Assembly: GCA_964405695.1 (NCBI GenBank)
Contig: CAYOOR010000112.1
Location: forward strand, 1-39,963
Source: an uncultured Alphaproteobacteria bacterium
GTDB lineage: Bacteria > Pseudomonadota > Alphaproteobacteria > GCA-002720895
Length of the DNA: 39,963 bases
Direction of reading: 5' to 3'
Shown here: piece after piece, positions 1,579-39,963 of the stretch
Layout of the letters: every line of letters begins with the position of its first letter
Numbering within the stretch: the first letter of the stretch is position 1
Translations under genes and position numbers: made by a program
Notes under the pieces: generated by a model
The model's database searches: none
What the model saw: the letters and a program-made list of their open reading frames with translations, nothing else
Told to the model about the DNA's origin: nothing

Positions 1579-2544
1579 TTACAAAATATTATTTTTTAGA
1601 AAAAATCTGTAATATTTTTTTATATTAAGAGTGTGATCTTTAAGACTAGGTAAAGAAGTTTTTGTTCCTTTCAGAAACACATTGGTCATTTTATATAAAC
1701 CTGGCTTAAATAAAAAATCATCTTTATCCTTAAAATTTATTTTTGTTTCTTTAAATTTTCTATTTATAAAACTAAGTTCCTCTAATGGCTTAAAAATTAA
1801 ATGCTTATTAGATGTAAAAAAATCTAAACTCCATCTACCAGGCGTTTTCCAATTTGCATGATAAGAAAATAGAGCATTCTTTTTAGAAATACCAGAACCT
1901 GTAAAAATAGCGCCATTTCTATGCCATGAAACTTTATCATAACTATAGTTTATTATTTTCCTAGGTAACCCTCCCAAATAAAAAGCTAAATCTATTACAT
2001 GGATAGAGTTAGCCATAAACCATTGTTGTTTAACATCTATAGATGTTTTTTCTCGTGATATAAGATGAGATCTTTCTGTAAAATCAAACTTAAATGATTT
2101 AATTCCACCATCTAATATAATTAATTTTTTAGCTTCAATCGTAGAATTATAATATCGTCTATTAAAAGCTATATGAATTCTGTTTTTATATTTTTTTTGG
2201 AGTCTAACTAGATCAACTAATTGTTTCAAATATAATGCGCCAGGCTTTTCTAATAAAATATTTTTAATTTTAAATTTGATTAGAATCTTACATACATCAT
2301 ATAATTCTTCGATACCTACAGCAATAATAGCATAATTATAATTATTACTTTTATTAATTAAATATTCATTTAAATTATTTTTAGGTTTTATTCCAAATTC
2401 ATTGTAAAAATTTTTATTATTTTTTGCCCCTCTTCCAATTACTGTTAGATTATCTTTTTTAACTTATTTAATAATTACTTTGGCTTATTCTTTTGCCATA
2501 TAACCTGTTCCTATTAATAGAACTTTTTTTATGTAATTAGACAT
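1579..2544 (-). pseudogene. Gfo/Idh/MocA-family oxidoreductase interrupted by two in-frame TAA codons
   Basis: The ATG at 2544-2542 opens MSNYIKKVLLIGTGYMAKE*AKVIIK*VKKDNLTVIGRG...NILLEKPGALYLKQLVDL..., in the same frame as the 216-aa ORF 1579-2229. The stops are at 2487-2485 and 2466-2464. A Rossmann GxGxxA motif and an EKP motif are both present. Confidence 0.65.
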
Positions 2545-15228: not shown

Positions 15229-15255
15229 TTTAATAAAAATTCCTCAATAAACTAT

Positions 15256-16691: not shown

Positions 16692-17278
16692 TAGCTTAAC
16701 ACAAATTTTTTTAAAAATTTTACTCCAGCAATACTACTTTTTTCCGGATGAAATTGACTCGCTATAATATTTTCTTTTCTAAATGCTCCTATATATGCTT
16801 CATTATTAAAATAATAATATGATAAATTAGTAATATTTAAATTTTTTTTTAAACCGTAATTATTCACATAATAATATGAGTTATTTAAATCTTTTTTTTT
16901 ATTAAATATAGTTTGATACCAACCTAAGTGTGGCCTTCTTTCTTTTCCTTTTTTTAATTTTATAATTTTTCCTTTAATCAATGATAACCCTCTAACATTC
17001 TTAGATTCTTCACTTTGATCAAATAAAACTTGAAAACCAGCACAGATTCCAAAAATAAGTTTTTTTTTATCATTTCTTTCTTTAATAGTTTTTATAATGT
17101 CTTTATCAAAAGAATTCATAAATCCACTAAATGATGCAGCACCTGGAATTACAAGTAAATCACAAGTAATTATTTTTTTTTTATCATTTGTCAATTCAAC
17201 ATTATATTTTTGCTCTTCAAAAAAAGTAAAAATTGATTTAAAGTTACCAACCTGTGATTTTAATATTACAATTTTCAT
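16691..17278 (-). CDS. HisH-like glutamine amidotransferase subunit (glycan-cluster paralog)
   Basis: 195 aa. Motifs: LVIPGAASF, FGICAGFQVLF, FHPEKS. Confidence 0.85.
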   Translation of the reverse strand: MKIVILKSQVGNFKSIFTFFEEQKYNVELTNDKKKIITCDLLVIPGAASFSGFMNSFDKDIIKTIKERNDKKKLIFGICAGFQVLFDQSEESKNVRGLSLIKGKIIKLKKGKERRPHLGWYQTIFNKKKDLNNSYYYVNNYGLKKNLNITNLSYYYFNNEAYIGAFRKENIIASQFHPEKSSIAGVKFLKKFVLS

Positions 17279-18108
17279 CTTGTTGATATTCTTGGAAATT
17301 TCTTTAATATTTTTTTTGGGTTAAATTTTGTTGATATATTCATGTTATTTTCTATATTTTCTATAGTTCTAAAATCTAAATAATTTTGTTTTCCTTTATT
17401 TTGTTTAAGAAATTGATAATGAAGTGATGAAGCAATAACAATTCCACTAATATTTTCAGATAAATTTATAATATTTTTTAAATCTTTTTCTGAACTAACT
17501 CCTCCTGAATATAAAAATGTTTGATTTTTTCTTTTAGATAGAATTTTAATTAAATCTAAATCAATACCATTACACCTACCATCATGTTCTATTGAATTGA
17601 TCAAAATTTCACCATCAAAAATTGTTTGTAAATAATCTAACCATTGTTTTAAGTTTTCATTAGCTAGATTTCTAGAAGATTCAGTAAAACATCTATATTC
17701 ATCATCTAAAATTTTTGTATAAACAGAAATAATTATATTTGCAGAACCAATCTTATTTATTAAATCTTTTAAGATATTTTTGTTTTTAAATATTGCAGAA
17801 TTTATAATAATTCTATCAGCACCTTGGTTAAGAGCAGTAGTAGAACTTTTTATATCTTTTAAACCACCTCCGTATGCTAAAGGAATTCTTAAATTTTTAG
17901 CAGTATCGTCTATTAATTTAAATGCTGATGGCGTACCAAATAAACTCGATACACAATCAATAACAATTATTTCATCAAAATTTTTTTCACTATAATTTTT
18001 AATAAATTTACTTGCAGGACCTAAAATTCTCAAACCTTCATGGTTTATACCTTTAACTAAATTATCATTTTTAACTTCTAGCTTTGGGATTATTCTTATA
18101 TTTCGCAT
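17275..18108 (-). CDS. HisF-like cyclase subunit (glycan-cluster paralog)
   Basis: 277 aa. RIIPKLEVKNDNLVKG parallels the HisF motif RIIPCLDV..G.VVKG. It is coupled to its neighbours by ATGA and TAATG overlaps. Confidence 0.85.
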   Translation of the reverse strand: MRNIRIIPKLEVKNDNLVKGINHEGLRILGPASKFIKNYSEKNFDEIIVIDCVSSLFGTPSAFKLIDDTAKNLRIPLAYGGGLKDIKSSTTALNQGADRIIINSAIFKNKNILKDLINKIGSANIIISVYTKILDDEYRCFTESSRNLANENLKQWLDYLQTIFDGEILINSIEHDGRCNGIDLDLIKILSKRKNQTFLYSGGVSSEKDLKNIINLSENISGIVIASSLHYQFLKQNKGKQNYLDFRTIENIENNMNISTKFNPKKILKKFPRISTR

Positions 18109-19295
18109 TAATTTAAATTTTCTTTAACTTTGTTAATCCATTTATTTTTATTATTTTTATACCAAATATTTTTAGGTCTATTAGTGTCTATAATTTTCCA
18201 ATAATTTTTTTCTGTTAAACCAATATAATCTAAAAAAAATTTAAAATTTTTTTTGGGAAACTCTTCATCATATTTTTTTATTAATTGGATAGCTTCATCT
18301 CTAGTTATATATCCATCCCTTATATCTCTACATGCATCATTCATAGTTCTTCCTTGTCCAAATTTTATCAACATTGTAAAGTAATATTGCCCATCTATTT
18401 TATCATCTAAACTAGAAAACTTTGTGTAAGTTCCTTCACTTCTTCCTAATGGATTGCTATTAAAATTACTAAATTTTTTAGAATAAAAATAATTTTGTTG
18501 AGGTGACCAATTCTCAAAATTACTGAAAAAAAATGTTTTAATTTTATTCTTTTTTACATCTTTTAAATTCATTGGCATATACAAAAATAAATCTTTAATA
18601 TTTATTTTTTCTTTCTTTAATTCATTTAAAGTTAATCCTGCTAACTTTATATCTTTCTTTTTTCCATTAAATGCATAATGTTCTGGAGGCATTTCAAAGT
18701 TATCAAATGAATCTAAATTCGAAGGATGAACCTCTAAAGGAGATTCCCCGTACATTACCAATTTTACATTGTACATTTTTGCAAATTTTGGTCCTATATT
18801 TTTTTGACCAATAACAAATGGTTGAAATGGATTACACAAATTCTTAAAGGATAAACGAGTTAAAATTTTTTTTACTTTTGGATTTGGATTTACAACTATA
18901 TTGTCTAAACCTGAGTTTATCCATTCTTGATGATTTATTTTACCTATATCAGTATAGACTATTGGTGCCCATGTGACAGTTAAAGGATTCATTGAATATT
19001 TATATTTTAATTTATGCGCAACAGCAAAACTATCTTTACCACCACTTCCTGGAACTATAACATCATAGCCTCCATCTTTTTTTTTATATTTTTTTAATAT
19101 ACTTATTAATTTTTTTTCTCTTTTTTTCCAATTAATTTTTCTTTTATATTCTGCATATTTACAAGCAAAACAAACTCCGTCATTATCAAATCTTGTAGAT
19201 TCATGATAGGATTTTTTTTTAAGGAATTCAGGAGTACTAACTGGTCTAGTATTTGCCATAACACATTTTTTACAAATAATAATTTTTTTTTCCAT
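18108..19295 (-). CDS. N-acetyl sugar amidotransferase (WbpG/PseA family), copy 1
   Basis: 395 aa. It has a CKKCVM...CFAC zinc-ribbon-like N-terminus and the PP-loop VIVPGSGGKDS. Confidence 0.8.
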   Translation of the reverse strand: MEKKIIICKKCVMANTRPVSTPEFLKKKSYHESTRFDNDGVCFACKYAEYKRKINWKKREKKLISILKKYKKKDGGYDVIVPGSGGKDSFAVAHKLKYKYSMNPLTVTWAPIVYTDIGKINHQEWINSGLDNIVVNPNPKVKKILTRLSFKNLCNPFQPFVIGQKNIGPKFAKMYNVKLVMYGESPLEVHPSNLDSFDNFEMPPEHYAFNGKKKDIKLAGLTLNELKKEKINIKDLFLYMPMNLKDVKKNKIKTFFFSNFENWSPQQNYFYSKKFSNFNSNPLGRSEGTYTKFSSLDDKIDGQYYFTMLIKFGQGRTMNDACRDIRDGYITRDEAIQLIKKYDEEFPKKNFKFFLDYIGLTEKNYWKIIDTNRPKNIWYKNNKNKWINKVKENLN

Positions 19296-19299
19296 TTAA

Positions 19300-20283
19300 T
19301 TAATCAAAATTATTTACTTCATCCCAATTGTAAATATATCTTTTAACTTTGTTTTTATATAAAACACTGGCAAATCGACCTCTGTAATAATCTCTATTTA
19401 AAATTTCAATATTAGTTAATTTTCTATTTTTTTTTCCTAGAATCTTATTTTTAAAATTTGTCGATAATTTAGACAAAATTATTTTTTGATCACTTCTAGA
19501 TAGATTTGAAAATTTGCTTATTTCATTTAATTGTTGCGGATTCATAGATACAATTCCATCACGAGTTTCTTCTGACTCTAATATTGTAAAATGTTTTTCA
19601 ATTATTTTAGCACCTAAATAAATAGCATATTTAATTGCTATTAAATTTTTATCTAAAGCTGCAGTATGGTCTGAGTAACCAAAACTTTTAGTAAATTTTT
19701 TTAAAAAATTTAATCTATTTAAATTCACATCCTTAATTGGAGTTGGATAAATGCTAACACAATGTAAAAAAGAGAATTTCTTTTTTTTTAATATTGAAGC
19801 TGCTTTTTTTATTTCATTATCATATGTTCCACCAGTAGATACAATAATATTGTTAAAATTATTTACTAAATCTCTTAATAATTGAAAAGATGCGCAATCT
19901 ATACTTGCAACTTTAATAAGTTTAAAATTTAATTCTTTTAATAATCTTATTTGTGATCTTGTAAAACAAGTAATTAAAGGAACAACATTATAACTTTCAC
20001 ATTTTTTTTTAAAATTTTCAATTTGTTTAATATTTAATTCTAGTTTTTTTAATCTTTTATATTCATCTTTATAAGGTCTTTTAATAGAATGAACTTTTTT
20101 ATTTATTTTTATACCAGATTCAAATTTTGGCCTAAAAGTTAGTTCATTTGCAAAAATATTTTGAATTTTTAAATGTGTTGCTCCATGTTCAACTGCTTTA
20201 TCAATCATTTCAGATAAAATAGCTGAATTTCCGTTATGATTCTGACAAAATTCAGCAATAATTGAAATTTTATTTTTTTTCAT
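19300..20283 (-). CDS. NeuB-family nonulosonic acid synthase, divergent copy
   Basis: Motifs: IIAEFCQNHNGN...HGATHLKIQ and GYSDHT. ATG at 20283 is preferred; the ORF track starts it at GTG 20298. Confidence 0.7.
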   Translation of the reverse strand: MKKNKISIIAEFCQNHNGNSAILSEMIDKAVEHGATHLKIQNIFANELTFRPKFESGIKINKKVHSIKRPYKDEYKRLKKLELNIKQIENFKKKCESYNVVPLITCFTRSQIRLLKELNFKLIKVASIDCASFQLLRDLVNNFNNIIVSTGGTYDNEIKKAASILKKKKFSFLHCVSIYPTPIKDVNLNRLNFLKKFTKSFGYSDHTAALDKNLIAIKYAIYLGAKIIEKHFTILESEETRDGIVSMNPQQLNEISKFSNLSRSDQKIILSKLSTNFKNKILGKKNRKLTNIEILNRDYYRGRFASVLYKNKVKRYIYNWDEVNNFD

Positions 20284-20986
20284 TAAGAATAAACTCACAA
20301 TATTTAAAATCTATTTCATTATCAATATCAACTGAATTTTTAGCATTCATGAAATAGGGAATTACTTTTTTACCATATACCAAATTATTCTTATTTTTAA
20401 AAATTACATTTCTTTTTGTTAAATAAATTGAACCATTAGTTTTATAAATATTTGATTTAACATCTTGTCTTCTAAAAAATTTATTATTTAACAAATAAGG
20501 TTTTAAATAATTTTTTTTTAATATTCTTAAAAAAACTGGATGAGATTTAATTACCTTTTTTACAGATACAACTGAATCACAAATATTATTTTTCATAATA
20601 TTAATTACTTTTTTTATATCAAGTGCATTTCGAAGGGGTGAAGTTGGTTGTAAAATTATAATCCAATCAATATGAACTTTGTCTTTTTTTTCAATAAAAT
20701 CAATACAGTGTTTTATAACAGGTAATGTAGGAGTAGTGTCTTTAGATATAATTTTTGGTCTTATAAAAGGAACTTCTGCTCCTAGTTTTTTTGATAATTT
20801 TGCTATTTTTTTACTATCTGTGCTTACAACTATTTTATAAAATAGTTTTTTTAATTTTAGCGCTTCATTTATAGAATAAAAAATCAATGGCTTTTTATTT
20901 AAAAGTTTAATATTTTTGTCTTTAATTGTTTTTGAGCTACCTCGTGCAGGTATTATTGCCAGAATTTTTAAATCTTTTTTTATCAT
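20270..20986 (-). CDS. neuA: Acylneuraminate cytidylyltransferase (CMP-nonulosonic acid synthetase, NeuA/LegF-like)
   Basis: 238 aa. Motif: LAIIPARGSSKTIKDKNIKLLNKKPLI. Confidence 0.8.
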   Translation of the reverse strand: MIKKDLKILAIIPARGSSKTIKDKNIKLLNKKPLIFYSINEALKLKKLFYKIVVSTDSKKIAKLSKKLGAEVPFIRPKIISKDTTPTLPVIKHCIDFIEKKDKVHIDWIIILQPTSPLRNALDIKKVINIMKNNICDSVVSVKKVIKSHPVFLRILKKNYLKPYLLNNKFFRRQDVKSNIYKTNGSIYLTKRNVIFKNKNNLVYGKKVIPYFMNAKNSVDIDNEIDFKYCEFILNEKK

Positions 20987-21023: not shown

Positions 21024-22076
21024 TTATTTTTTTATTTTAAGATTATCAATCTTAGCTTTATCTAAATCAGATATCTTACCAATATCAATCCAATAATCTG
21101 AAAATAAAAAAGCATTAATTTTCTTTTTTTTTTCAAAACCTAATTCAACGAGTTCAGGAAAATCTAATATTTTTTTTTCTTTTACTAATTTTACAGCTTC
21201 CTTACTTAATATATATATTCCTGTATTAATTAAACTTTTATAGGTTGGTTTTTCAACAATATTTGTAACTCTTGTTTTTTTAACTGAAACAACACCAAAA
21301 TCATTTTTCATCTCATGATATTTAACAGCAATAGATAAAAAAGGATTATGTTTTGTATGAAATTCAAAAAAAGAATTAAAATCTAATGTAGTCAATATAT
21401 CACCATTTATTATTAAAATTGGATAATTAACTTTCTCTTTTATTAACGAAAGAGAACCAATAGTGCCCAATGGTTTTTTTTCTTCTAAATAGTTTATTTT
21501 TATTCCTGAACTTTCATTAGATTTTAAAAAATGTTTTATTTTATTTTTTTTATAATTTATAGAAATATAAAAATTTTTAAAACCTTGTGATGTGCAATTT
21601 TCCAATATATTCATTAATAATGGTTTACCACCAATTTCAACCATTGTTTTAGGTTTATTATATGTTATAGGTCTCAATCTCTTTCCAAGACCTCCTGCCA
21701 TAATAACAACTGTATTTTTTTTTTCTTTAGTAGTCCAAACTTCATCAATTGATTTTATATCTTTTAATTTTCTATCCTTATCAATAATAATTACTTGTTT
21801 GATAATATTAGATTTCATAATTTGGGAAATTTCTGCATTACTCCTATTTTCATTAACAAGAATTGGATTTTTATTCATTATTTTTGAAAGTTGCAAATTA
21901 GTATTAAAATTTTTAATTAATGATCTTCTAATATCCCCATCGGTAACAGTTCCAAGTATTTTATTATTTTTATTTTTAATAATTATTATTTTATAAATAC
22001 TAAATTCTAGTATTTTTAAAGCATCTTGAATTGTATTTTCAGGATTTAATTGGTTTTTTTTTATATTATAAATCAT
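21024..22076 (-). CDS. CBS-domain sugar-phosphate nucleotidyltransferase (PtmE-like)
   Basis: 350 aa. It has the CBS-type GTVTDGDIRRSL followed by the NTP-transferase motif VIMAGGLGKRLRPIT. Confidence 0.75.
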   Translation of the reverse strand: MIYNIKKNQLNPENTIQDALKILEFSIYKIIIIKNKNNKILGTVTDGDIRRSLIKNFNTNLQLSKIMNKNPILVNENRSNAEISQIMKSNIIKQVIIIDKDRKLKDIKSIDEVWTTKEKKNTVVIMAGGLGKRLRPITYNKPKTMVEIGGKPLLMNILENCTSQGFKNFYISINYKKNKIKHFLKSNESSGIKINYLEEKKPLGTIGSLSLIKEKVNYPILIINGDILTTLDFNSFFEFHTKHNPFLSIAVKYHEMKNDFGVVSVKKTRVTNIVEKPTYKSLINTGIYILSKEAVKLVKEKKILDFPELVELGFEKKKKINAFLFSDYWIDIGKISDLDKAKIDNLKIKK

Positions 22077-22077
22077 T

Positions 22078-23625
22078 TTATGAAAAAATTAATTTGTGAA
22101 AAGTTTTATCTTTTCTAAGTTTATAAGAATTAATAATTGCATTTTTTAAATTTTTTTCACTAAAATTTGGCTTGTTTTTTTTATCAATGTTTATTTTTAA
22201 GAGGGATACTCTTTTTTTTAAAATTAAAGTATCTTTTTTAGTTAATTTATAAAAATCTACATCATTTAAAATTATTGGTAAATCTGTTTTTATCGCATGA
22301 CTCCAAGTATTTGTACTTCTGTAATCAAAAAATAAATAATCATACTTATAACAAATAGCTTCAAAGGGTTCATTTTCAATTTCAATTTTTACTAATGATA
22401 ATATTCTTTTAACTATTTCTTTATTACAATCAGGATGAGGTTTATAAATAACTTGATAACCTAATTTTTTTAAAGCACCTAATATTCTAATATGCCAATC
22501 AATTAAAATAGGTGGTGGAAAAAAAGTAATGCATAACCCTTGATTTAATAAAAAGGGAGGAGAAACGAATAATATTTTTTTCCCCTCTCTTTTTTTTTAT
22601 ATTTTTTTAATTGTATTTTTTTTTTTAATTAATAATAATGATTTCAATTTTAATTTTGAATGAGAAGATTTGCTATATTTCATAAATTTAAAATAGTAAT
22701 TAATATGTTTCTTGTTAAATGTAAAAAAAATATCTGAACTATTAGATTCAGCAAATAAACTTGTTGAGGTATTAATAGAAAAATCACCAACAGAATGATC
22801 GAAGTTAAAAACCTTTCCTCCATTTTTTTTTACTGCAGCTGCAAGAATTCTACACCAAATTATCCCTAATGACCCTGTTAATAATAACTTGGGTAATTTA
22901 TCTTTTACTTTATCTAATCTAGTAAGATACAAATTTACCCAAAAAAAATATTCTAGAATCCACTTTTTAAAATCATTTAATTCTTTTTTTGTAAGTCTAC
23001 ATTCTAATTTAATAAATTCTTTTTCTACTTTATTTAAAAAAAAATTTATTAAATTTAGATTCAATTTTTTTTTTTTTTTAGAATTAAATAATTAATAAGT
23101 TTTTTTATAAAACCATTCATATAAAGGAACTAAATAAAAAGTTTTTTTTTGATTATTTAAATATTCTTTAATCAAGGGATTATTTGATACAACTATATTT
23201 AATTCTTTTTTTTTTATTTTTTCTAGTCTTCTGTATGAAAAAACTTTTTTTGGATAAAAATTTTTTAATAATCTTAAATATCTAATTAATTTATTTTTTT
23301 TTTTTAATCCCTTTTGAAGATGTAAATGTTCAAATGAACCTTTGGTTTCTAAGCTAAATAATAATTTCTGAGTTTTATTATCATACTTATTTATTAAATT
23401 TTTAATTTTTTTTTCATGATATAAAATAAATAATTTTTGTGTTATGTAAATTTGTAAACAACTAAATATTTCAAAATCCTGTATCTTATTTTTAAAAAAA
23501 AAATTTTCTGAATCTAAAAAAATTTTTTTAATTTTATTACTGATTTTTTCATAATCACTATACTTTATCGGCCAATAAATATCTTTTATACCACTTTCAG
23601 TTAAATGTAATTTTCTTAATTGCAA
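22078..23625 (-). pseudogene. One 516-codon reading frame for an uncharacterised surface-carbohydrate transferase-like protein, cut by two in-frame TAA codons
   Basis: Segments 23625-23095, 23091-22600 and 22596-22081 are all in the same frame (coordinate mod 3 = 1). The stops are at 23094-23092 and 22599-22597. The third segment (KKREGKKILFVSPPFLLNQG...KLIFS*) has no ATG/GTG/TTG start, and the first two start only at TTG. Confidence 0.5.
23065..23079 (-). repeat. Homopolymer A15 on the coding strand, just downstream of the first in-frame stop
   Basis: Counted directly: 15 consecutive t at 23065-23079. Confidence 0.9.
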
Positions 23626-23645: not shown

Positions 23646-24800
23646 TTATTTAATTAAATTTTTTAATTTATATTTTGTACCAACTTTTTTCCAAATATGA
23701 TTTGATCTCCAACTGTTTATAACATCCCAAAACAGATCTTCTTTAATATTTAAATATTCTAAAAAAAATTTAAAATTTTTTCCGGGAAATTCATCATCAT
23801 ATTTCCTTACTAATGAAACACCTTCATCCCTTGTAATTTTTCCATCTCTTATTTCATGAGCACTATCTGAAGTAGCTCTACCAATACCAAATTTTATAAA
23901 CCCTAGATAATAATGAAAACCATCAAGTTTATCGTCTAAACTTGCGTATCTAGAATAAGTTGATTCACTTCTGACTGGATTTAATTTAAAATTTGTATTT
24001 TTAGCACAATAATAATAATTTTCTTGGGGATCCCAAAAATGATAATAGCCAAAAAAATGTTGTTCAATTCCAATTTTTTTAATACTTTTAATATCAGGCG
24101 CATCATATATTTCTAAATCGCTTGAATTAATTTTATATTTTTTCCAAAATTTTAAAGGATAACTGGAAAAATAATGCTTATTTGCATAATTAACTTTTTT
24201 CATAGGTTGATATGCGTTAGTCATATCACCGCCATATTCAACTTCTCCATTCTCCCCATAAAAAATCAATGGTATTTCGTGTTGCACAGCTACTCGTAAT
24301 GGAAAATTTGCTTGACCATATACAAAACCTTGAAAAGGTTCGCCAAGAACAATAAAGCCTAATTTAGCTAAACGTCTATTCACTATTCCATCAGGTTTTC
24401 CTAAAATATTATCAAGTCCTGCGTCAACTAAACCAGTATAATTTTTTAAACCAATATCTGTCCAGGCATTAGGTGACCAAGTAGCAGTAAGTGGCTTCAT
24501 TCCATACTTTGCTTTAAGTATATGAGCAACATATCCGCTGTCTTTCCCGCCGCTTGATGGAACTACGCAATCATGTTTATTTGTTTTAGATCTATGTTTA
24601 TCTAATAATCTTAATAATTCTTCATCTCTTTTAAACCAATTGACTTTTCTTTTATATTTAGCAAAATTACATGCACTGCAAACATTATTCTTGTCAAAAG
24701 TTATTCTTGGTCTTTGATTACTCATTGTACAAAGTTTACAAAATTGAACCTTTTTCGGTAAATTATATAATTTAATTACATTCTTTTTTATAATTTTCAT
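23646..24800 (-). CDS. N-acetyl sugar amidotransferase (WbpG/PseA family), copy 2
   Basis: 384 aa. Motifs: CKLCTMSNQRP...CSAC and the PP-loop CVVPSSGGKDS. It is clearly paralogous to 18108-19295. Confidence 0.85.
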   Translation of the reverse strand: MKIIKKNVIKLYNLPKKVQFCKLCTMSNQRPRITFDKNNVCSACNFAKYKRKVNWFKRDEELLRLLDKHRSKTNKHDCVVPSSGGKDSGYVAHILKAKYGMKPLTATWSPNAWTDIGLKNYTGLVDAGLDNILGKPDGIVNRRLAKLGFIVLGEPFQGFVYGQANFPLRVAVQHEIPLIFYGENGEVEYGGDMTNAYQPMKKVNYANKHYFSSYPLKFWKKYKINSSDLEIYDAPDIKSIKKIGIEQHFFGYYHFWDPQENYYYCAKNTNFKLNPVRSESTYSRYASLDDKLDGFHYYLGFIKFGIGRATSDSAHEIRDGKITRDEGVSLVRKYDDEFPGKNFKFFLEYLNIKEDLFWDVINSWRSNHIWKKVGTKYKLKNLIK

Positions 24801-25879
24801 TTTTTATTTCTAAAATTTTCTTTAATTAATTCATCAAAATTATAATTTCTAGAAGACTTTTTTCCTAATAAATTCCAAAAATACATTGGGCTAATCCCTC
24901 TACCTGATCTTTTAGTACTTATATTTTTTTTGGTAAATTTCTTTCCTTTTTTTATCTTTTGTAAAGCAATAATACTTTTTCTTGAAACATAAGAATTAGA
25001 TTTTTCTTCTTTAGTTATTTCTCTTTTCAATTTACCTAAAGAGATTTCTGTAAGCCTTATAGAATTAACCATTTCAGAAAATTCTCTTTTATTAAAGGAT
25101 GATGAATGATCGGGGCCTGAATCATTTTTATTTAACGTTAAATGCTTTTCAATAATATTAGCTCCTAAAGCTACAGCTATAGTAGAACTTATTATATTTG
25201 TACTATGATCAGAAAAACCAACTTCAAGATTAAAAATTTTTTTTAAATTCTTAATGTTATTTAAATTAACATTAGATGTTGATACTGGATATTCAGAATT
25301 ACAATGCATTAAAATAATTTTATTTTTTATTTTTTTTTTGTTTTTTTTATATGCATTAATAAAATTTAAATTATTTATTTTTTTTTTCAGAAATGAATGT
25401 GTTAAAACATCTAAAGCTAAATTTATGTCTTTTATAGTTGACATTCCAGTTGATAAAAAAACTTTCTTACAATTTAGTCCAATATAATTTAATAATGGTG
25501 CATTTGTGATCTCTCCAGACGGAATTTTAATTATTCTTGTTTTAAGTTTTTTAATTAAAAACTTAGCACTATCTAAGTCAAATGGAGATGAAATAAACTT
25601 AATACCTAATTTATCAGCATATTTTTTTAATTTAATGAAAGAACTTTGAGATAATTGGTTTTTTTTTAACAATTCAAATTGATTTTTAAAAAATGAATTT
25701 TTTCTTTGATAATTCGCTAATTTTGAATTTTTAACCACTATATTACTTGTAATATAAGTTTGAAACTTAACTGCATCCGCGCCAGCACTGTAAGCAATTT
25801 TTATTAAATTTTTAGCTTTTTTTTCAGAACCATTATGGTTAATACCTATTTCCGCAATAATAAAAGTTTTTTTAATCAT
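24797..25879 (-). CDS. neuB: N-acetylneuraminate/legionaminate synthase (NeuB/LegI-like)
   Basis: 360 aa. Motifs: FIIAEIGINHNGSEKKAKNLIKIAYSAGADAVKFQTY and GFSDHS. Confidence 0.85.
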   Translation of the reverse strand: MIKKTFIIAEIGINHNGSEKKAKNLIKIAYSAGADAVKFQTYITSNIVVKNSKLANYQRKNSFFKNQFELLKKNQLSQSSFIKLKKYADKLGIKFISSPFDLDSAKFLIKKLKTRIIKIPSGEITNAPLLNYIGLNCKKVFLSTGMSTIKDINLALDVLTHSFLKKKINNLNFINAYKKNKKKIKNKIILMHCNSEYPVSTSNVNLNNIKNLKKIFNLEVGFSDHSTNIISSTIAVALGANIIEKHLTLNKNDSGPDHSSSFNKREFSEMVNSIRLTEISLGKLKREITKEEKSNSYVSRKSIIALQKIKKGKKFTKKNISTKRSGRGISPMYFWNLLGKKSSRNYNFDELIKENFRNKK

Positions 25880-25885
25880 TTTTAA

Positions 25886-27046
25886 TTAATTTTTAGAAAA
25901 AAATTTTTTAAGAAGTACTTTATCTAAATTTATTTTTTTAATTTGTTTTATTATTTTCCCTGATGTATTTCCATCGCCATAAAATTTTTTAAATTTATTT
26001 ATTTTTGTTTTAAATTGATTTGATATTGCTACTTGAATTGATTTGATTATTTCTTTTTTATCTGTTTTACAATTAATAATAGATTTGGACATTAATCTAC
26101 CTGACTGCCTAGTTCCGATATTTATTGTTGGTTTTTTGAAATATGGTGCATCTATAATACCACTAGATGAATTCCCTATAACAGCTGATGAATAATTCAT
26201 AATATTTAAATATAAATCACCTCCTAAATTTTCGGTAAAAAAAACTTTATTTAAATTTTTTTTTTTAAATTCTTTTATTTTTTTAATAATATAATTGTAT
26301 TTTGAATCAAAGCCCGGGCATGTAAAAACAAAATTATAATTTTTAAAGTATTTTAATGATTTAATTACTTCATTTATTAATTTTTTAGTTTCATTCTGAT
26401 CTATCGTATTAGGATGAACACAAATTAAAAAATATTCTAAATCTGATTTAAAATTTAAAATTTTTTTTATATTTTTGTAGTTTATTTTTTTCATTAATTT
26501 TATTCTTTCTGCAGAAAGTGATCCGACATTAAATACTTTTTTTGGATCTTCACCCATTTGAATAACATTTCTTTTATATTGATCTGATGCTACAAAATGA
26601 AAATGCGACATTTTTGTTATTGAATGTCTTATACTATTATCAATTGACCCTTTTGTTATTTCACCGCCATGTAAATGAATAATAGGAATATTTTGAAACA
26701 TAGCGCTTATAGCTACTGAAAGTATTTCATATCTATCACCAAATAAAATAATAGCATCAGGTTTAATTTTACAAACCTGACTATTTATTTTTTCTGATAA
26801 AATATTAAAAATATTAGACATTGGTAAATTCTTTATATTTTTTGATATTTTTATTTCTTTAACAAAATTATATTTTTCTTTATAAATATCTTTTATAGAA
26901 TATCCGAATTCTTTTAAATGATGATTTCCGGTTACTATCAATGTTAATGATAAACTTTTTTCTTTTTTTATCTGATCAATTAATATTTTTTGTAAATAAA
27001 AATCAGATCTTGATACTGACACAAATAAAATTTTTTTTATTCTCAC
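25886..27046 (-). CDS. neuC: UDP-/GDP-N-acetylhexosamine 2-epimerase (hydrolysing), NeuC/LegG-like, copy 1
   Basis: 386 aa with a GTG start. Motif region: GDRYEILSVAISAMFQNIPIIHLHGGEITKGSIDNSIRHSITKMSHFHF. Confidence 0.85.
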   Translation of the reverse strand: MRIKKILFVSVSRSDFYLQKILIDQIKKEKSLSLTLIVTGNHHLKEFGYSIKDIYKEKYNFVKEIKISKNIKNLPMSNIFNILSEKINSQVCKIKPDAIILFGDRYEILSVAISAMFQNIPIIHLHGGEITKGSIDNSIRHSITKMSHFHFVASDQYKRNVIQMGEDPKKVFNVGSLSAERIKLMKKINYKNIKKILNFKSDLEYFLICVHPNTIDQNETKKLINEVIKSLKYFKNYNFVFTCPGFDSKYNYIIKKIKEFKKKNLNKVFFTENLGGDLYLNIMNYSSAVIGNSSSGIIDAPYFKKPTINIGTRQSGRLMSKSIINCKTDKKEIIKSIQVAISNQFKTKINKFKKFYGDGNTSGKIIKQIKKINLDKVLLKKFFSKN

Positions 27047-27049
27047 TTT

Positions 27050-27641
27050 TTATATTTTATTTTTAGATATTGTTTGTCCTGCTTTTATAAAAATATTAGA
27101 ACCTATTTTGATATTAGGAGTAATTATTGTACCGGCTCCTATTAATGTATTATTTCCAATACTTACGTTTCCACATATAACTGCTCCTGGAGCAATATGT
27201 ACATTTTCTCCAATTTTACAATCATGATCTATTAAAGCTCCTGTATTTATTATCGAATTTTTTCCTATACTACATCCTGGTTGAATTATAACACCAGCCA
27301 TTATTTGAGATCCTTCATCAAAATAAACATCGTCAGAAATAATAGAAGTTGGATGTTTTAATTCTAAAAAATTAAAATTTTTTTTTTTAAATAATTCATA
27401 AACTTTTCTCCTTTTACTTTTATCTTTACTAAAACCAATGCCATTTATTAAAAAAATTTTATTTGAAGAATAATTTAAAATAGATTCATCATTTCCAAGA
27501 TATTTACAATTCTTAATTTTTTTTTTTTTTATTTTTATCAATGAAACCAATTATTCTTAACCCTTTCTTTTTTAATACATCAAACAAAACTTTTGAATGC
27601 CCTCCTCCTCCTATTAAAATAATTGATTTATTCTTTATCAT
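27050..27641 (-). pseudogene. NeuD/PglD/LegH-like hexapeptide-repeat acetyltransferase, frameshifted at an A14 tract
   Basis: The ATG at 27641 overlaps the upstream TGA as ATGA. It gives MIKNKSIILIGGGGHSKVLFDVLKKKGLRIIGFIDKNKKKKN*. The left-handed beta-helix part (GKNSIINTGALIDHDCKIGENVHIAPGAVICGNVSIG) lies in another frame (ORF 27050-27550). A tract of A13 would fuse the two. Confidence 0.7.
27517..27530 (-). repeat. Homopolymer A14 on the coding strand at the frameshift point
   Basis: Counted directly: 14 consecutive t at 27517-27530. Confidence 0.9.
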
Positions 27642-28819
27642 TTCTTACTAAATAATATCGGACTACTAGGTAAGCAAATTAAATTTTTATTAATAATATC
27701 AATATTTTCTAATTTCATTGACGGATATTTTTTATACATTGGCAACTTATGTATTGGAAACCAAATAGGTCTACAATGAACATATCGTTTTTCTAAATCT
27801 GATAATATTTTATTTCTTATTTTTAAAGAATTTTTTTTTAAAAAAATAATATTTAACCAATTATTTCTTTTAGTATTTAATGGTTCTTTAAAAAAATTTA
27901 TTTCCTGAAACTTATGAAAATAATTTTGATAAAATTTAGTTAATAATTTTTTTCTTTTTAAAAAATTTTTCAATTTTTTTATTTGAGCACAACCAATAGC
28001 AGCATTAATATTGGGCATTCTATAATTGTATCCAACTTGATCATGAAAAAAATCAGTTCTTTTTATTTTTTTTGCAACATTTGATAAATGTTTTGCTTTT
28101 TCAAAAATTTTTTTATTATTTGTTAATATCGCTCCACCAGCACCTGTTGTAATAATTTTGTTTCCATTAAAACTTAATGCTGAAATTGTTCCAAAATTGC
28201 CAACATGTTTTTTTTTATAATAGGACCCAACCCCCTCGGCAGCATCTTCAACTAAATCAATTTTAAAAAGTTTTGCTAATTTCAATAATTCATTCATATT
28301 AGCAGGAGTACCGTAAACATGCGTAACGATTAAAGCTTTAATATAATTATTAGTATTTAAATTTTTTAAACCTTTTGAAGTTTGTCGAGTATTTTTATTT
28401 AAATATTCAATTAATTTTATTGCATCAACACCTAAAGTATTCAATTCAGAATCAACAAAATGCGGAGTTGCATTACAATACTTTATAGCATTAACAGTAG
28501 CTACAAAAGTTAAGGTTGGGACAAGTACTTCATCATTTTTTTTAACACCAATTGATTTTAAAGCTATATGTAAAGCCGAAGTGCCACTATTTAATAATAA
28601 AATATTTTTACATTTTATAATTTTTTTTAATTCATTCTCAAATTTTGAAATAAACTCTCCAGTTGTAGACACCCATCCAGTTTTCAAACAATTTCTTGAA
28701 AATTTAATTTCATCATTACCTATTTCTGGCTCATGTAATGCAAAATATTTGAAATTTCTTTTTTTTGCTACCAATTTAACAGCATTATGAATGTTTTCAG
28801 ATATTTTTAGATAATTCAT
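27638..28819 (-). CDS. DegT/DnrJ/EryC1-family PLP aminotransferase (LegC-like)
   Basis: 393 aa. Motifs: HEPEIGNDEIKF...TGWVSTTGEFISKFE and SFNGNKIITTGAGGAI (the Lys motif). Confidence 0.85.
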   Translation of the reverse strand: MNYLKISENIHNAVKLVAKKRNFKYFALHEPEIGNDEIKFSRNCLKTGWVSTTGEFISKFENELKKIIKCKNILLLNSGTSALHIALKSIGVKKNDEVLVPTLTFVATVNAIKYCNATPHFVDSELNTLGVDAIKLIEYLNKNTRQTSKGLKNLNTNNYIKALIVTHVYGTPANMNELLKLAKLFKIDLVEDAAEGVGSYYKKKHVGNFGTISALSFNGNKIITTGAGGAILTNNKKIFEKAKHLSNVAKKIKRTDFFHDQVGYNYRMPNINAAIGCAQIKKLKNFLKRKKLLTKFYQNYFHKFQEINFFKEPLNTKRNNWLNIIFLKKNSLKIRNKILSDLEKRYVHCRPIWFPIHKLPMYKKYPSMKLENIDIINKNLICLPSSPILFSKK

Positions 28820-28852: not shown

Positions 28853-29830
28853 TTATATATTATATTGATTTTTGTAATAGCTAAGATTTTCAGGATTATT
28901 AAACCAATTTAAAGTTTTTTCTAGTCCTTCATTAATGTTTACTTTAATTTTCCAATTAGTTTTTTTTATTAATTTTCTATTATCACATACTAAATTAGCG
29001 ACTTCACTATCAATAGGTCTTTTTCTTTTTTTATCAATTTTAATTTTTATATTTAAATTTAATATTTTTTCTAAAGACATAACCATTTCTTTCACAGATA
29101 AACTTTTTTTTGAACCAACATTTACAATTTCTCCAATAATTTTATTAGATTTAAATATTTCTAAAAATGCTGAACAAACATCTGACACATATATTAAATC
29201 TCTTTTTGTATTAATATTTCCAAGATAAATTTCTCTTTTTCTTTGTAAAATCTGAGAAATAATCGTAGGTATAATAGCTCTAGCAGATTGTCTTGGTCCA
29301 TACGTGTTAAAAGGTCTTGCAATTTTAACTGGCAAATTAAAAGATCTAAAATAACTTAATGATAATTGATCCGCAGCAACTTTTGATGCAGCGTATGGTG
29401 ATTGTGCGTTGATGGGATGAATTTCATTAATAGGAGTATATTGTGCAGAACCATAAATTTCGCTTGTGGATGTTATAATTACTTGATCAACTTCTTTGTG
29501 TTTCGAAGCCTCAAGAATATTATAAGTTCCTTCAACATTTGTTTTAATATAAGCTAAAGGAGAAATATATGAATATGGTATTCCAATCAAAGCTGCTAAA
29601 TGAATAATATTTGAAGATTTTTTTACAACATTTAATACTGAATCATAATCACGTATGTCCCCTAAAATCATTTCAAAATCATTTTTATATTTACTATTTT
29701 CTAACCAACCCCAATTATTAAAACTGTTATAACGATCAAAAGCTATTACTTTAAAACCTTTTTCAACAAAAAATTCAACTAAGTGTGATCCAATAAAACC
29801 AGCTGCACCAGTTATTAATACTTTTTTCAT
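28853..29830 (-). CDS. NAD-dependent sugar-nucleotide 4,6-dehydratase/epimerase (LegB-like SDR)
   Basis: 325 aa. Motifs: ITGAAGFIGSHL, YNSFNNWGWLE, YAASKVAADQL. Confidence 0.8.
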   Translation of the reverse strand: MKKVLITGAAGFIGSHLVEFFVEKGFKVIAFDRYNSFNNWGWLENSKYKNDFEMILGDIRDYDSVLNVVKKSSNIIHLAALIGIPYSYISPLAYIKTNVEGTYNILEASKHKEVDQVIITSTSEIYGSAQYTPINEIHPINAQSPYAASKVAADQLSLSYFRSFNLPVKIARPFNTYGPRQSARAIIPTIISQILQRKREIYLGNINTKRDLIYVSDVCSAFLEIFKSNKIIGEIVNVGSKKSLSVKEMVMSLEKILNLNIKIKIDKKRKRPIDSEVANLVCDNRKLIKKTNWKIKVNINEGLEKTLNWFNNPENLSYYKNQYNI

Positions 29831-31637: not shown

Positions 31638-32126
31638 TTAAGCAATATTTAAATATCTATTCTCTACAGTTAAATTTGTTAATTTGCCTAAAAAATTTAA
31701 TAATACTTTAACTCTATCTTTGCTTTCTTTTTTTAAAAAATGACATTCCTTATTTTTAAAAGGCCCATCAACAATTTTAATTTTTTTTCCAACATAGAGT
31801 TTAATTAAATCAAATGGATTAATTATTTCTTTATTATTTAAAATTTTTTTTAGATTATTTATTACATAGTCAGGTACTGCTATTGGTTTATTTTGTGAGG
31901 TAAAAATATTTTTCACACCTCTTGTATAAAAAATTTTAGTCCAATTATCTTTTTTTACATCAAAAGAAACAAATAAATATCTTGGAAAAAGAAAAGAAAA
32001 TATTTTTTTTTTATTTTTAAATTTTAAGTATTTTAATGACAAACAATCAAACTTTTGGTTACGTAAATTATTTTCAGCAACTATTTCTTTATTATGATGT
32101 GAATATATAACGTACCACTTTTTCAT
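31638..32126 (-). CDS. rfaH: RfaH-like NusG paralog (operon-specific transcription antiterminator)
   Basis: 162 aa from the ATG at 32126. MKKWYVIYSHH..., LFPRYLFVSFD, TRGVKNIF, PIAVPDYVINNL and the KOW-like GKKIKIVDGPFKNKECHF line up with the E. coli RfaH motifs WYLLY, LFPNYLFVEFD, TRGVSHFV, PAIVPSAVIHQL and GDKVIITEGAFEGFQAIF. Confidence 0.8.
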   Translation of the reverse strand: MKKWYVIYSHHNKEIVAENNLRNQKFDCLSLKYLKFKNKKKIFSFLFPRYLFVSFDVKKDNWTKIFYTRGVKNIFTSQNKPIAVPDYVINNLKKILNNKEIINPFDLIKLYVGKKIKIVDGPFKNKECHFLKKESKDRVKVLLNFLGKLTNLTVENRYLNIA

Positions 32127-32130
32127 TTTA

Positions 32131-32742
32131 TTATTTTTTCTTTTTTTTGGAAATTCGAAGTAATTCAGGTGTGAAAATATTATTATAATTAATAACTTTA
32201 ATACATTCATCATAAACTTTTTGAGAATTATTTATTTCTAAAATTATTAATGCTTCAATTGAATATAATTTATTTATTTTTTTAATTTCATTTCTATTTA
32301 TTTTTACTAAACGAAAAGAAAATTGTTTAGATAGAAGTTCAGTTATCTCAACTAAATCACCATCGCCAATAATACCTATATTTATATATTTTTTTTTTTT
32401 ACATATACTTAGAATTTTTAAACATTCATTTTTTGCTTTTCTAAAAAAATCAAATGAATTTGTTAAATAATTAAAAGTTAATCTACTTTTTTCAGAAAAA
32501 CCCTTAGGAGTTAAATAATAAAAATATCTTGCTTTTGGAATTTGTTTTACTTTAACTAAACCTTTTTTTATACACTTATTTAAATAAGTATTAGTTAAAC
32601 CTACAGCTATAGATAATTGATCTGATAAATATCTTTGTGATGCTTTTCCATTTTTATCAAGTTCACTTAATAAATCCAATTGTATTTTTTCTTCAATTGT
32701 TTTTTTTCCTACTGAAAATGTTTTTTTTTGTATTATGCTCAT
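32131..32742 (-). CDS. MarR-like winged-helix regulator of the EPS-associated type, with an extra C-terminal domain
   Basis: SQRYLSDQLSIAVGLTNTYLNKCIKKGLVKVKQIPKARYFYYLTPKGFSEKSRLTFNYL is a wHTH. About 100 further residues follow (INIGIIGDGDLVEITELL). The start is uncertain: ATG 32742, ATG 32763 or TTG 32781. Confidence 0.65.
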   Translation of the reverse strand: MSIIQKKTFSVGKKTIEEKIQLDLLSELDKNGKASQRYLSDQLSIAVGLTNTYLNKCIKKGLVKVKQIPKARYFYYLTPKGFSEKSRLTFNYLTNSFDFFRKAKNECLKILSICKKKKYINIGIIGDGDLVEITELLSKQFSFRLVKINRNEIKKINKLYSIEALIILEINNSQKVYDECIKVINYNNIFTPELLRISKKKKK

Positions 32743-32746
32743 AACG

Positions 32747-32778
32747 TGAACAATAACGTTCATAGTATGAATTGTCAA
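32747..32778 (-). promoter_or_regulatory. Candidate sigma70-type promoter plus inverted repeat upstream of the regulator gene
   Basis: The minus strand has TTGACA (32778-32773), 17 nt, TATTGT (32755-32750), then 7 nt to ATG 32742. The inverted repeat TGAAC-N6-GTTCA at 32762-32747 overlaps the -10. This is valid only if ATG 32742 is the true start. Confidence 0.2.
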
Positions 32779-32816
32779 CAAATATAACTAATTTTATTTA
32801 AAATATATGAAAAAAA

Positions 32817-39458: not shown

Positions 39459-39963
39459 ATGTCCAAATTTAAAAAAATAATTTTACTTTCAATATTTTTA
39501 ATAATTTTTATATCTTTTTTTGTTTTTAATTTAGATGAATATTTCTCACTTGATTATATTAAAAAAAATAATGAAATAATATCTGAATATATCAATTCAA
39601 ATTATTATTATTAAATTATTTTATTTTATTTAATATTTTTAATTTCAATTTCTTTTTTTTACCAGTAATAGCAATAACAACAATTATACTAAGTTTTTTA
39701 TATGGTCCATTTATTAATATACCATTAAGCATATTAACAATAACTTTAGGAGGAACATTAAATTTTTATTTATTACGACAAATAAATTTTAATAAAATTT
39801 TTTTAAAGGCAAATAAAATTCTTAAAAAAATTAATTTTAAAATTAATGAAAACCAGTTTCAATACTCTCTTTTATTAAGATTCATACCAATACCGTATAT
39901 AATACAAAATGCAATTTTAGTTTTATTAAAAATAAAACCAAAAATTTTTGTAATATCAACGAT
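39459..39963 (+). pseudogene. TVP38/TMEM64 (DedA-related) membrane protein gene, apparently frameshifted; 3' end lies outside the window
   Basis: The ATG at 39459 gives MSKFKKIILLSIFLIIFISFFVFNLDEYFSLDYIKKNNEIISEYINSNYYY*, with the stop at 39612-39614. A second frame, open from 39587, continues LLLLNYFILF...FFFLPVIAITTIILSFLYGPF...LLLRFIPIPYIIQNAIL, which is typical of the family. Confidence 0.5.

What the first reader, a model, noticed from the sequence alone, without database searches (positions are those of the whole stretch)
27050..27641. NeuD/LegH-like acetyltransferase is out of frame at an A14 tract near its 5' end
The N-terminal 40 or so codons (MIKNKSIILIGGGGHSKVLFDVLKKKGLRIIGFIDKN..., the nucleotide-binding part typical of NeuD/PglD) start at an ATGA overlap with the aminotransferase gene. 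The hexapeptide-repeat body is in a different frame. The switch point is an A14 run (27530-27517), and A13 or A16 would restore a single ORF.

There are three possible explanations. One is a homopolymer sequencing or assembly error. Another is slipped-strand phase variation, as seen for surface-glycan genes in Campylobacter, though there with poly-G. The third is rescue by transcriptional slippage on long poly(A), which is documented for A/T-rich endosymbionts. This enzyme is an essential step of the Leg/Neu-type pathway encoded around it, so its state decides whether the pathway runs.
Basis: partly seen in the sequence, partly recalled or inferred. Interest (0 to 1): 0.6.

Follow-up and report, generated by a model that had tools for sequence, protein, structure and literature searches.

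The report
One-contig poly-A frameshift in legH
A sugar N-acetyltransferase gene in this marine contig really is split by a run of 14 A's, but nine other public copies of the same gene have 13 A's and are intact. The break is therefore most likely a one-base miscount in this contig, or at most a one-off slippage mutant, and not a genetic switch.

Summary
On the minus strand an A14 run (27530-27517) separates a 42-codon N-terminal ORF from the hexapeptide-repeat body. A13 or A16 gives one 196-aa protein that passes the NeuD/PglB/VioB model. It sits in a complete legionaminic-acid-type cluster (LegB, LegC, LegH, NeuC, NeuB).

The frameshift is private to this contig. Nine independent metagenome datasets carry an otherwise identical, or one-SNP, gene with A13 and an intact ORF. 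No indexed run holds all three sampled words of the A14 stretch.

Orthologs at 77% identity have an interrupted tract (A5-T-A6). More distant homologs and a second allele have no tract. Runs of 13 or more A's are as common here as in shuffled sequence (22% GC).

The same contig has six more private disruptive lesions in three other genes: five in-frame TAA codons and a second homopolymer frameshift. These lie in short clusters of mostly transversions.

My verdict is a sequence or assembly error (about 0.6). Next comes a sporadic real slippage null allele (about 0.25). Evolved phase variation or programmed slippage rescue is unsupported. The reads behind the contig could not be inspected. Interest is low.

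The parts
27517..27530 (-). A14 homopolymer (T14 on the + strand). This is the frame-switch point. It is A13 in every other copy found.
27513..27641 (-). N-terminal ORF of legH/neuD: 42 codons plus a TAA. It encodes the GGGGH nucleotide-sugar-binding start of the PglD_N domain. Its ATG overlaps the legC stop codon (ATGA).
27050..27550 (-). Body ORF in the +1 frame: the rest of the PglD_N domain plus the left-handed beta-helix with the catalytic His (IDHDC). Its DNA is identical to the intact copy in L003; the DRR683874/DRR683878/SRR5002404 copies (L006-L008) differ by one SNP at 27477.
27050..27641 (-). The whole legH/neuD-type N-acetyltransferase gene. It would encode 196 aa if the tract were A13.
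27638..28819 (-). LegC-family aminotransferase, the step before the acetyltransferase.
   Evidence: TIGR04181, 460 bits, cutoff 420
28853..29830 (-). LegB-like NAD-dependent 4,6-dehydratase.
   Evidence: TIGR04180, 433 bits, just below the cutoff of 475
25886..27046 (-). NeuC/LegG-type hydrolysing 2-epimerase, the step after the acetyltransferase.
   Evidence: TIGR03568, 396 bits
24797..25879 (-). NeuB/LegI-type nonulosonic acid synthase.

Best explanation
The gene is an ordinary legH/neuD-type sugar N-acetyltransferase. Its natural state in this marine population is a single 196-aa ORF containing an in-frame A13 tract (four AAA lysine codons plus the first A of an ATT isoleucine codon), in a variable loop just after strand beta-2 of the N-terminal domain.

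The 14th A in this contig is a one-base length miscount at the longest homopolymer tract that could be compared with other assemblies (A14). It most likely entered during sequencing or assembly of a low-coverage, extremely AT-rich region. It is not a property of the organism.

What is shown: the break is present, A13 restores the frame, the A14 is private to this contig, the tract is not conserved, and the contig carries other private defects. What is inferred: that the extra A arose in sequencing or assembly rather than in a cell.
For: 1. Nine independent datasets carry the gene with A13 and an intact ORF:
- ENA ERZ23495044 scaffold_1151 (L001/L003)
- Logan contigs of DRR683878, SRR5002404 and DRR683874 (L006-L008)
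- ENA ERZ23491119 (L030)
- runs X26, X27, X28 and X29, each with one contig showing '1 letter left out at 27517'

2. A14 appears nowhere else. Of the 3 sampled 31-mers in the 64-base stretch around the tract, no indexed run holds more than 2.

3. Apart from the tract, the gene is base-for-base identical to the intact copy in L003. There is no decay downstream of the break.

4. The same contig has six more private disruptive lesions in three other genes, all intact in the sibling assemblies:
- two TAA codons in a GFO/IDH/MocA oxidoreductase gene
- two TAA codons in a conserved 515-aa gene
- one TAA plus a -1 frameshift (8 versus 9 bases) in a DedA-like gene

5. The private differences sit in 7-50-nt clusters, and 11 of the 13 that can be polarised are transversions. 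Differences private to the other assemblies are about half transitions.

6. The population is at only about 2-6x word depth in the runs that hold it. Other assemblies of it also carry private artefacts, such as N-runs and a 23-nt junk insert that splits the ABC transporter gene in L003.

7. Assembly-induced homopolymer frameshifts are documented for AT-rich marine genomes, though for Nanopore assemblies (bioRxiv 10.64898/2026.04.03.716430).
Against: - The contig's homopolymer calling is otherwise good. 157 of 159 comparable A/T tracts of 8 nt or more agree in length with the other assemblies, including all five A12 and all four A11 tracts.
- A13 tracts really are hypermutable, so +1 alleles must exist in nature at some frequency.
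- Three of the other broken genes carry two lesions each. That is also what relaxed selection after a first hit would give.
- Five stop codons among roughly 20 private substitutions is more than I would expect from random errors. This is my estimate and was not computed.
- The reads behind the contig were not available. The only raw-read runs offered (X40, X41) do not contain the organism.
Confidence: 0.6

Rival explanations
1. The allele is real but sporadic. A +1 replication-slippage mutation in the A13 tract inactivated legH in the clone that was sampled. This would be part of a recent, unselected or phage-selected loss of function of genes in and beside the glycan island. The tract toggles because any A13 does, not because it evolved as a switch.
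For: - The tract length (13-14) is in the range where replication slippage is frequent (established knowledge).
- The contig shows other private inactivating lesions, two per gene in three genes, as expected once a gene is already dead.
- 157 of 159 other homopolymer tracts agree with the other assemblies, which argues against a generally noisy sequence.
Against: - The private alleles are absent from all nine other datasets and from contigs of the four runs that hold the locus best.
- One broken gene (DedA-like) is not a recognised glycan-biosynthesis gene.
- The private substitutions lie in 7-50-nt clusters and are almost all transversions. That does not look like independent neutral mutations, and no private synonymous change is seen in the ~11 kb covered by two or more comparators.
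- Five nonsense codons and two frameshifts in a sequence 99.7-99.9% identical to its siblings would need a very unusual burst of mutation.
Confidence: 0.25
2. This is evolved phase variation. The poly-A tract is a contingency locus that switches the Leg-type surface glycan ON (A13) and OFF (A14, A12), for example to escape phage, as poly-G tracts do in Campylobacter glycan genes.
For: A slippery repeat lies in the 5' part of a surface-glycan gene, and one OFF-length copy exists.
Against: - The census is 9 ON to 1 OFF, with no third length.
- The tract is not conserved. It is A5-T-A6 in the 77% orthologs. It is absent from the L002 allele and from the ~60% homologs.
- Such tracts are no more frequent than composition predicts.
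- None of the other 157 comparable tracts varies between assemblies.
- The only other tract that does vary is also private to this contig, which points at the contig rather than at a switch.
Confidence: 0.08
3. Expression is rescued or programmed. The genomic A14 is real, and functional enzyme is made through RNA-polymerase slippage on the T14 template (A13 or A16 transcripts) and/or ribosome sliding (+1) on the poly-A. This would resemble Buchnera and Blochmannia genes or Citrobacter tssM.
For: - Runs of 9 or more A/T cause slippage by bacterial RNA polymerase (PMC5009743).
- An A11 run rescues tssM (PMC4256274).
- Ribosomes slide on iterated AAA codons (PMC4363877).
- If the allele is real, some rescue is mechanistically expected.
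Against: - The out-of-frame arrangement is not conserved, because all relatives are in frame. Nothing therefore suggests the arrangement is programmed.
- Restoring the frame needs -1 or +2. At A/T runs +1 insertions prevail, and a transcriptome-wide study of Buchnera found no case of a restored frame (PMC5574713).
- No RNA covers the tract. The one metatranscriptome with the locus covers only legC 28023-28373.
Confidence: 0.04

Closest known systems
LegH / PglD / PerB / VioB-type NDP-sugar N-acetyltransferases (NeuD/PglB/VioB family, TIGR03570)
   Same: - It has a PglD_N domain plus a left-handed beta-helix.
- It aligns end to end with PerB (4ea7, E 1.7e-29), VioB (7txp) and PglD (3bss).
- The His of the IDHDC motif aligns with the PerB His that is replaced by Asn in entry 4eaa.
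- The gene lies between a LegC-type aminotransferase and a NeuC-type epimerase, as legH does in the Campylobacter legionaminic acid pathway. That comparison is from my own knowledge (Schoenhofen et al. 2009) and I did not check it in a paper here.
   Different: In this contig only, the ORF is broken after codon 41 by one extra A. The substrate and nucleotide carrier were not determined.
Assembly- or sequencing-induced homopolymer frameshifts in AT-rich marine genomes
   Same: One gene is predicted as two adjacent ORFs, split at a long A/T run. The split is private to one assembly, and intact copies exist elsewhere. 'Pelagibacter, resolved' (bioRxiv 10.64898/2026.04.03.716430) reports 3,547 such genes (1.8%).
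   Different: That report concerns Nanopore assemblies with many such errors per genome. Here only 2 of 159 tracts are off, and the sequencing platform of this contig is unknown.
Phase-variable homopolymer contingency loci (poly-G in Campylobacter jejuni flagellar-glycan, capsule and LOS genes; Neisseria, Haemophilus)
   Same: A mutable homopolymer sits inside the coding region of a surface-glycan gene, and its length sets the reading frame.
   Different: The tract is poly-A rather than poly-G. It is not conserved in orthologs. Only one OFF copy was seen against nine ON copies. The tract frequency is explained by base composition.
Poly(A) frameshifts rescued by transcriptional slippage (Buchnera/Blochmannia genes, Citrobacter rodentium tssM A11, Thermus dnaX A9)
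   Same: A run of 9 or more A's lies at the frame break, so RNA polymerase slippage is mechanistically possible.
   Different: In those cases the out-of-frame genomic arrangement is fixed or conserved, and RNA or protein evidence exists. Here the arrangement is private to one contig and no RNA evidence is available.

Membership tests
NeuD/PglB/VioB sugar N-acetyltransferase family (LegH-like) | Whole-protein match to the family model above its curated cutoff | tested here: met
   TIGR03570 scores 199.1 bits against a cutoff of 160.8, with residues 7-194 on model positions 2-189 of 202, for the A13 read-through.
NeuD/PglB/VioB sugar N-acetyltransferase family (LegH-like) | Two-domain architecture: PglD_N Rossmann-like domain plus a hexapeptide left-handed beta-helix with the catalytic His | tested here: met
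   Pfam PglD_N covers residues 7-82 and Hexapep gives 3 stretches. The protein aligns with PerB 4ea7. The IDHDC His aligns with the residue changed to Asn in 4eaa.
NeuD/PglB/VioB sugar N-acetyltransferase family (LegH-like) | One uninterrupted ORF | tested here: not met
   In the window the gene is split at A14. It is uninterrupted in nine sibling copies with A13.
NeuD/PglB/VioB sugar N-acetyltransferase family (LegH-like) | Context of a Leg-type pathway (dehydratase, aminotransferase, 2-epimerase, NulO synthase) | tested here: met
   LegB-like, LegC, NeuC and NeuB genes flank it. Downstream lie WbuX, a PtmE-like nucleotidyltransferase and a cytidylyltransferase.
Phase-variable contingency locus | Simple-sequence repeat inside the ORF or promoter whose length sets expression | tested here: met
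   The A13/A14 tract lies at codons 38-42. A13 and A16 are in frame.
Phase-variable contingency locus | Recurrent ON and OFF lengths among closely related sequences | tested here: not met
   Nine copies have A13 and one has A14, which is the window itself. No other length was seen. These are consensus contigs only.
Phase-variable contingency locus | Length heterogeneity within one sample or clone, at read level | not testable with these tools
   Only assembled contigs were available for the runs that hold the locus. The raw-read runs X40 and X41 lack the organism.
Phase-variable contingency locus | Tract maintained by selection (conserved in orthologs, or enriched over composition) | tested here: not met
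   The tract is interrupted (A5-T-A6) in the 77% orthologs and absent from the L002 allele and the ~60% homologs. Runs of 13 or more A's occur as often as in shuffles.
Programmed transcriptional slippage / recoding | Out-of-frame genomic arrangement conserved among relatives | tested here: not met
   All relatives are in frame.
Programmed transcriptional slippage / recoding | Transcripts or protein with the corrected frame | not testable with these tools
   The one metatranscriptome with this locus covers legC only.
Sequence/assembly artefact | The difference is private to one assembly and contradicted by independent data | tested here: met
Sequence/assembly artefact | The contig's own reads disagree with its consensus | not testable with these tools
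   The source run of the contig was not identified. No indexed run holds all words of the tract stretch or of the private patch.

The most novel reading that the evidence does not exclude
The contig faithfully records a real lineage of an abundant, very AT-rich marine bacterium. In it, AT-biased transversions and homopolymer slippage have just knocked out legH, a 515-aa glycan-island gene, an oxidoreductase gene and a DedA-like gene. legH A13/A14 would then act as a de facto ON/OFF switch of a legionaminic-acid-type surface glycan, for example under phage pressure, partly buffered by transcriptional slippage or ribosome sliding on poly-A.
Probability: 0.08. Interest if true: 0.5.

Novelty: not a real feature. 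Interest (0 to 1): 0.12.

Why it matters
If the frameshift were real and recurrent, it would be a poly-A contingency switch for a nonulosonic-acid surface glycan in a free-living marine bacterium. That would bear on phage-host dynamics in the hypervariable glycan islands of ocean plankton.

The evidence instead says the gene is normally intact. The practical lesson is about annotation. In 22%-GC sequence, a split gene at the longest homopolymer of a single low-coverage contig should be checked against sibling assemblies before it is called a pseudogene or a switch. This particular contig carries several such private defects.

Tried and rejected
- Read-level check. The runs that hold the locus are available only as contigs. 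The two raw-read runs offered (X40, X41) gave only low-complexity partial matches.
- RNA check. The single metatranscriptome (X25) covers part of legC and not the tract.
- Exact-pattern scans allowing A10-A18 found nothing in JGI metagenome contigs (two scans), GTDB genome contigs or IMG/VR.
- A GTDB scan with LegC found relatives of 37% identity or less. They were mostly Pelagibacteraceae single-cell genomes, which is too distant for a tract comparison or for taxonomy.
- Exact look-ups of the 42-aa and 166-aa fragments found no other contig.
- Taxonomy. The KdsB-like protein, and the GroEL that flanks the island in the sibling scaffold, have only unnamed marine metagenome relatives (one search timed out). 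The organism stays unassigned.
- Stop-codon reassignment as an explanation for the in-frame TAA codons was rejected. The siblings have Glu, Glu, Tyr, Leu and Ser at those five positions, and ordinary genes here end in TAA.
- A second frameshift at the A15 run (23079-23065) was rejected. The two flanking ORFs are in the same frame, separated by a TAA.
- A frameshift between the overlapping ORFs at 31638-32781 was rejected. They are two separate genes, a MarR-type regulator and an RfaH-like factor.

Full report
**Observation**

On the minus strand the sequence reads GAT AAA AAT AAA AAA AAA AAA AAT TAA, with exactly fourteen A's at 27530-27517. An ORF starts at the ATG at 27641, which overlaps the TGA of the upstream aminotransferase gene (ATGA). 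It stops after 42 codons at 27513. The rest of the protein is open in the +1 frame from 27550 to 27050.

Editing the tract in silico shows that A13 or A16 gives a single ORF of 196 or 197 aa, while A14 and A15 do not.

The tract is not a statistical oddity. The window is 21.9% G+C and has 36 A/T runs of 10 nt or more. Runs of 13 or more A's occur as often as in dinucleotide-preserving shuffles (5 matches against a mean of 5.05).

**What the gene is**

The A13 read-through matches NCBIfam TIGR03570 (NeuD/PglB/VioB sugar acetyltransferase) in one stretch across the junction, with 199.1 bits against a cutoff of 160.8. It has Pfam PglD_N plus Hexapep domains.

It aligns end to end with solved N-acetyltransferases: PerB (4ea7, E 1.7e-29), VioB (7txp), Neisseria PglB (4m98) and PglD (3bss). 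The alignment includes the His of the IDHDC motif, which is the residue replaced by Asn in entry 4eaa.

The lysine run (codons 38-41) lies in a variable loop just after the IIGFID strand of the N-terminal domain.

The neighbours form a complete Leg-type cluster:
- a LegB-like dehydratase (28853-29830)
- a LegC aminotransferase (27638-28819)
- a NeuC-type epimerase (25886-27046)
- a NeuB-type synthase (24797-25879)
- a WbuX amidotransferase (23646-24800)
- a CBS-domain nucleotidyltransferase (21024-22076)
- a cytidylyltransferase (20270-20986)

There is also a second set comprising NeuB, NeuC, WbuX, WbuZ and HisH. No other hexapeptide acetyltransferase was recognised in the window. If the break were real, this branch would therefore probably be blocked (inference).

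**Is the frameshift a property of the organism?**

The window is a complete NCBI contig of 39,963 bp. Its 42-aa and 166-aa fragments cluster with full-length 196-aa proteins from other sources.

The same gene, identical or with one SNP, was recovered with A13 and an intact ORF from nine other datasets:
- ENA ERZ23495044 scaffold_1151 (L001/L003)
- Logan contigs of DRR683878, SRR5002404 and DRR683874 (L006-L008; the DRR683874 contig has the same length (1018 nt), SNP and A13 as the contig laid from run X1, so the two are counted as one dataset)
- ENA ERZ23491119 (L030)
- runs X26, X27, X28 and X29, each with a contig spanning the tract and one letter left out at 27517

No dataset has A14 or any third length. 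Of the three sampled 31-mers in the 64-base stretch around the tract, no indexed run holds more than two. That includes runs known to hold A13.

**Is the tract conserved?**

It is not. Syntenic orthologs at 77% protein identity (six contigs, L009-L014) read AAT AAA AAT AAA AAA TTT, which is A5-T-A6. Homologs at about 60% identity have no lysine run. One near-identical contig (L002) switches to a different allele without a tract, at 27537, seven bases upstream of the tract.

The A13 therefore arose by two point changes in one lineage of a lysine-rich, AT-rich loop.

**Quality of this contig**

The window was compared with sibling assemblies that are 99.7-99.9% identical. Of 159 A/T tracts of 8 nt or more, 157 have the same length. 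The two exceptions are both private to the window and both break a gene: the A14, and an 8-versus-9 run at 39653-39660.

The window also carries five private in-frame TAA codons:
- two in a GFO/IDH/MocA oxidoreductase gene (2544..1579), giving Y20* and L27*; only one comparator covers this gene
- two in a conserved 515-aa gene (23625..22078)
- one in a DedA-like gene on the + strand near 39613

The intact alleles of the 515-aa gene are seen in L003 and L004. They are also seen in contigs of runs X1 and X2, and partly in X3 and X4.

The private differences lie in tight clusters: 2485/2465, 23097-23077, 22628/22599, 39661/39613 and 39023-39017. Eleven of the thirteen that can be polarised are transversions, mostly towards T or A. 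Differences private to the other assemblies are about half transitions.

In the ~11 kb covered by two or more comparators, every window-private difference falls in legH or in the 515-aa gene.

The other assemblies have their own private artefacts. These include N-runs and a 23-nt insert that splits the ABC transporter gene in L003. The population sits at only about 2-6x word depth in the runs examined.

**Interpretation**

The simplest reading is that the true gene is intact (A13). The extra A would then be a miscount at the longest homopolymer tract that could be compared with other assemblies, in a contig that has several other local errors. I put this at about 0.6.

The main rival, at about 0.25, is a real and very recent +1 replication-slippage allele in a clone that has also lost other genes. 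Three points favour it:
- The homopolymer calling is otherwise accurate.
- A13 tracts really are unstable.
- Two lesions per gene are what relaxed selection after a first hit predicts.

Against it stand the clustering and spectrum of the private changes, their absence from all other data, and the involvement of a gene that is not a recognised glycan-biosynthesis gene.

An evolved phase-variation switch (about 0.08) fails the tests that could be run. The census is 9 to 1, no third length was seen, and the tract is neither conserved nor enriched.

Programmed rescue by slippage (about 0.04) is not indicated, because the out-of-frame state is not conserved. If the allele is real, some adventitious rescue is plausible. 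RNA polymerase slips on runs of 9 or more A/T (PMC5009743), an A11 run rescues tssM (PMC4256274), and ribosomes slide on iterated AAA codons (PMC4363877).

The frame here needs -1 or +2, however. Insertions, mostly of a single base, dominate at A/T runs, and a transcriptome-wide study of Buchnera found no restored frame (PMC5574713).

**Limits**

I could not see the reads behind the contig, and I could not obtain RNA across the tract.

The organism remains unassigned. It is marine and planktonic. The low-identity genome hits go mostly to Pelagibacteraceae single-cell genomes. The GroEL that flanks the island in the sibling scaffold has only unnamed metagenomic relatives at 90-96% identity.

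**Verdict**

The gene identification and context are right. The break is most likely not a biological feature, and if it is real it is a sporadic null allele rather than a switch. Interest is low.

Noticed in passing
window 22078-23625 (- strand): A conserved 515-aa gene of unknown function has no Pfam or NCBIfam hit and has a 512-aa ortholog in the syntenic cluster. In the window only, it carries two in-frame TAA codons (23094-23092 and 22599-22597). It also has a private patch, GAGAAAGAA changed to TATTAATTA, and a T-to-A change that creates the A15 run at 23079-23065. The gene is intact in L003, L004 and the contigs of runs X1 and X2.
   Followed up: yes
window 1579-2544 (- strand): A GFO/IDH/MocA-type oxidoreductase gene (321 aa in the sibling scaffold L027) has two in-frame TAA codons 20 nt apart in the window. 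They are T-to-A changes at 2485 and 2465, giving Y20* and L27*. The gene is otherwise identical. Only one comparator covers it, so the direction of change is inferred.
   Followed up: partly
window 39459-39963 (+ strand): A DedA/VTT-domain gene (228 aa in L028 and L029) carries three window-private changes: a TAA at about 39612-39614 (S52*), a -1 frameshift at a T8 run (39653-39660, T9 in both siblings), and a K-to-N change at 39814. The gene runs off the end of the window.
   Followed up: partly
L002:4272-4315 versus window 27537-27505: One near-identical contig (99.95% over 4.3 kb upstream) switches to a different legH allele at 27537, seven bases upstream of the tract (IDFDNKKFIEWLK...). 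This is either a recombination boundary inside the gene or a chimeric contig end. The contig ends 33 nt later.
   Followed up: no
L003:4316-6045, 11083-11171; L027:11031-11915: The sibling ENA scaffold has its own private defects. A 23-nt insert splits the ABC transporter gene into 119 + 457 aa. N-runs interrupt the WbuX and RmlA genes. Assemblies of this AT-rich population are generally imperfect.
   Followed up: partly
window 14065-20986 (- strand): A second nonulosonic-acid gene set lies downstream: NeuC-like, a divergent NeuB-like protein (332 aa, below the model cutoff), a PseF-like cytidylyltransferase, and WbuX/WbuZ/HisH acetamidino-modification genes. The island may therefore make two related sugars or an amidated derivative.
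   Followed up: partly
window 31638-32781 (- strand): An RfaH-like antiterminator (TIGR01955, 111 bits, below cutoff) and a MarR-type EPS-associated regulator sit just upstream of the ABC transporter and the leg genes. This suggests dedicated transcriptional control of the long operon.
   Followed up: no
window, whole: There is strong strand asymmetry of long runs: 130 T runs of 8 nt or more on the + strand against 37 A runs. Nearly all genes are on the minus strand, and the runs are AAA lysine codons. All 36 runs of 10 nt or more, except the A14, are compatible with open frames.
   Followed up: partly
window 28023-28373: Contigs from one marine metatranscriptome (X25) match legC exactly. The locus is therefore probably transcribed in situ, although DNA carry-over is not excluded.
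   Followed up: no
L027:18984-21050: In the sibling scaffold the island is flanked by groEL-groES and a sigma-70-family gene. The GroEL has thousands of unnamed marine metagenome relatives at 90-96% identity. This indicates a very abundant, microdiverse planktonic lineage.
   Followed up: partly
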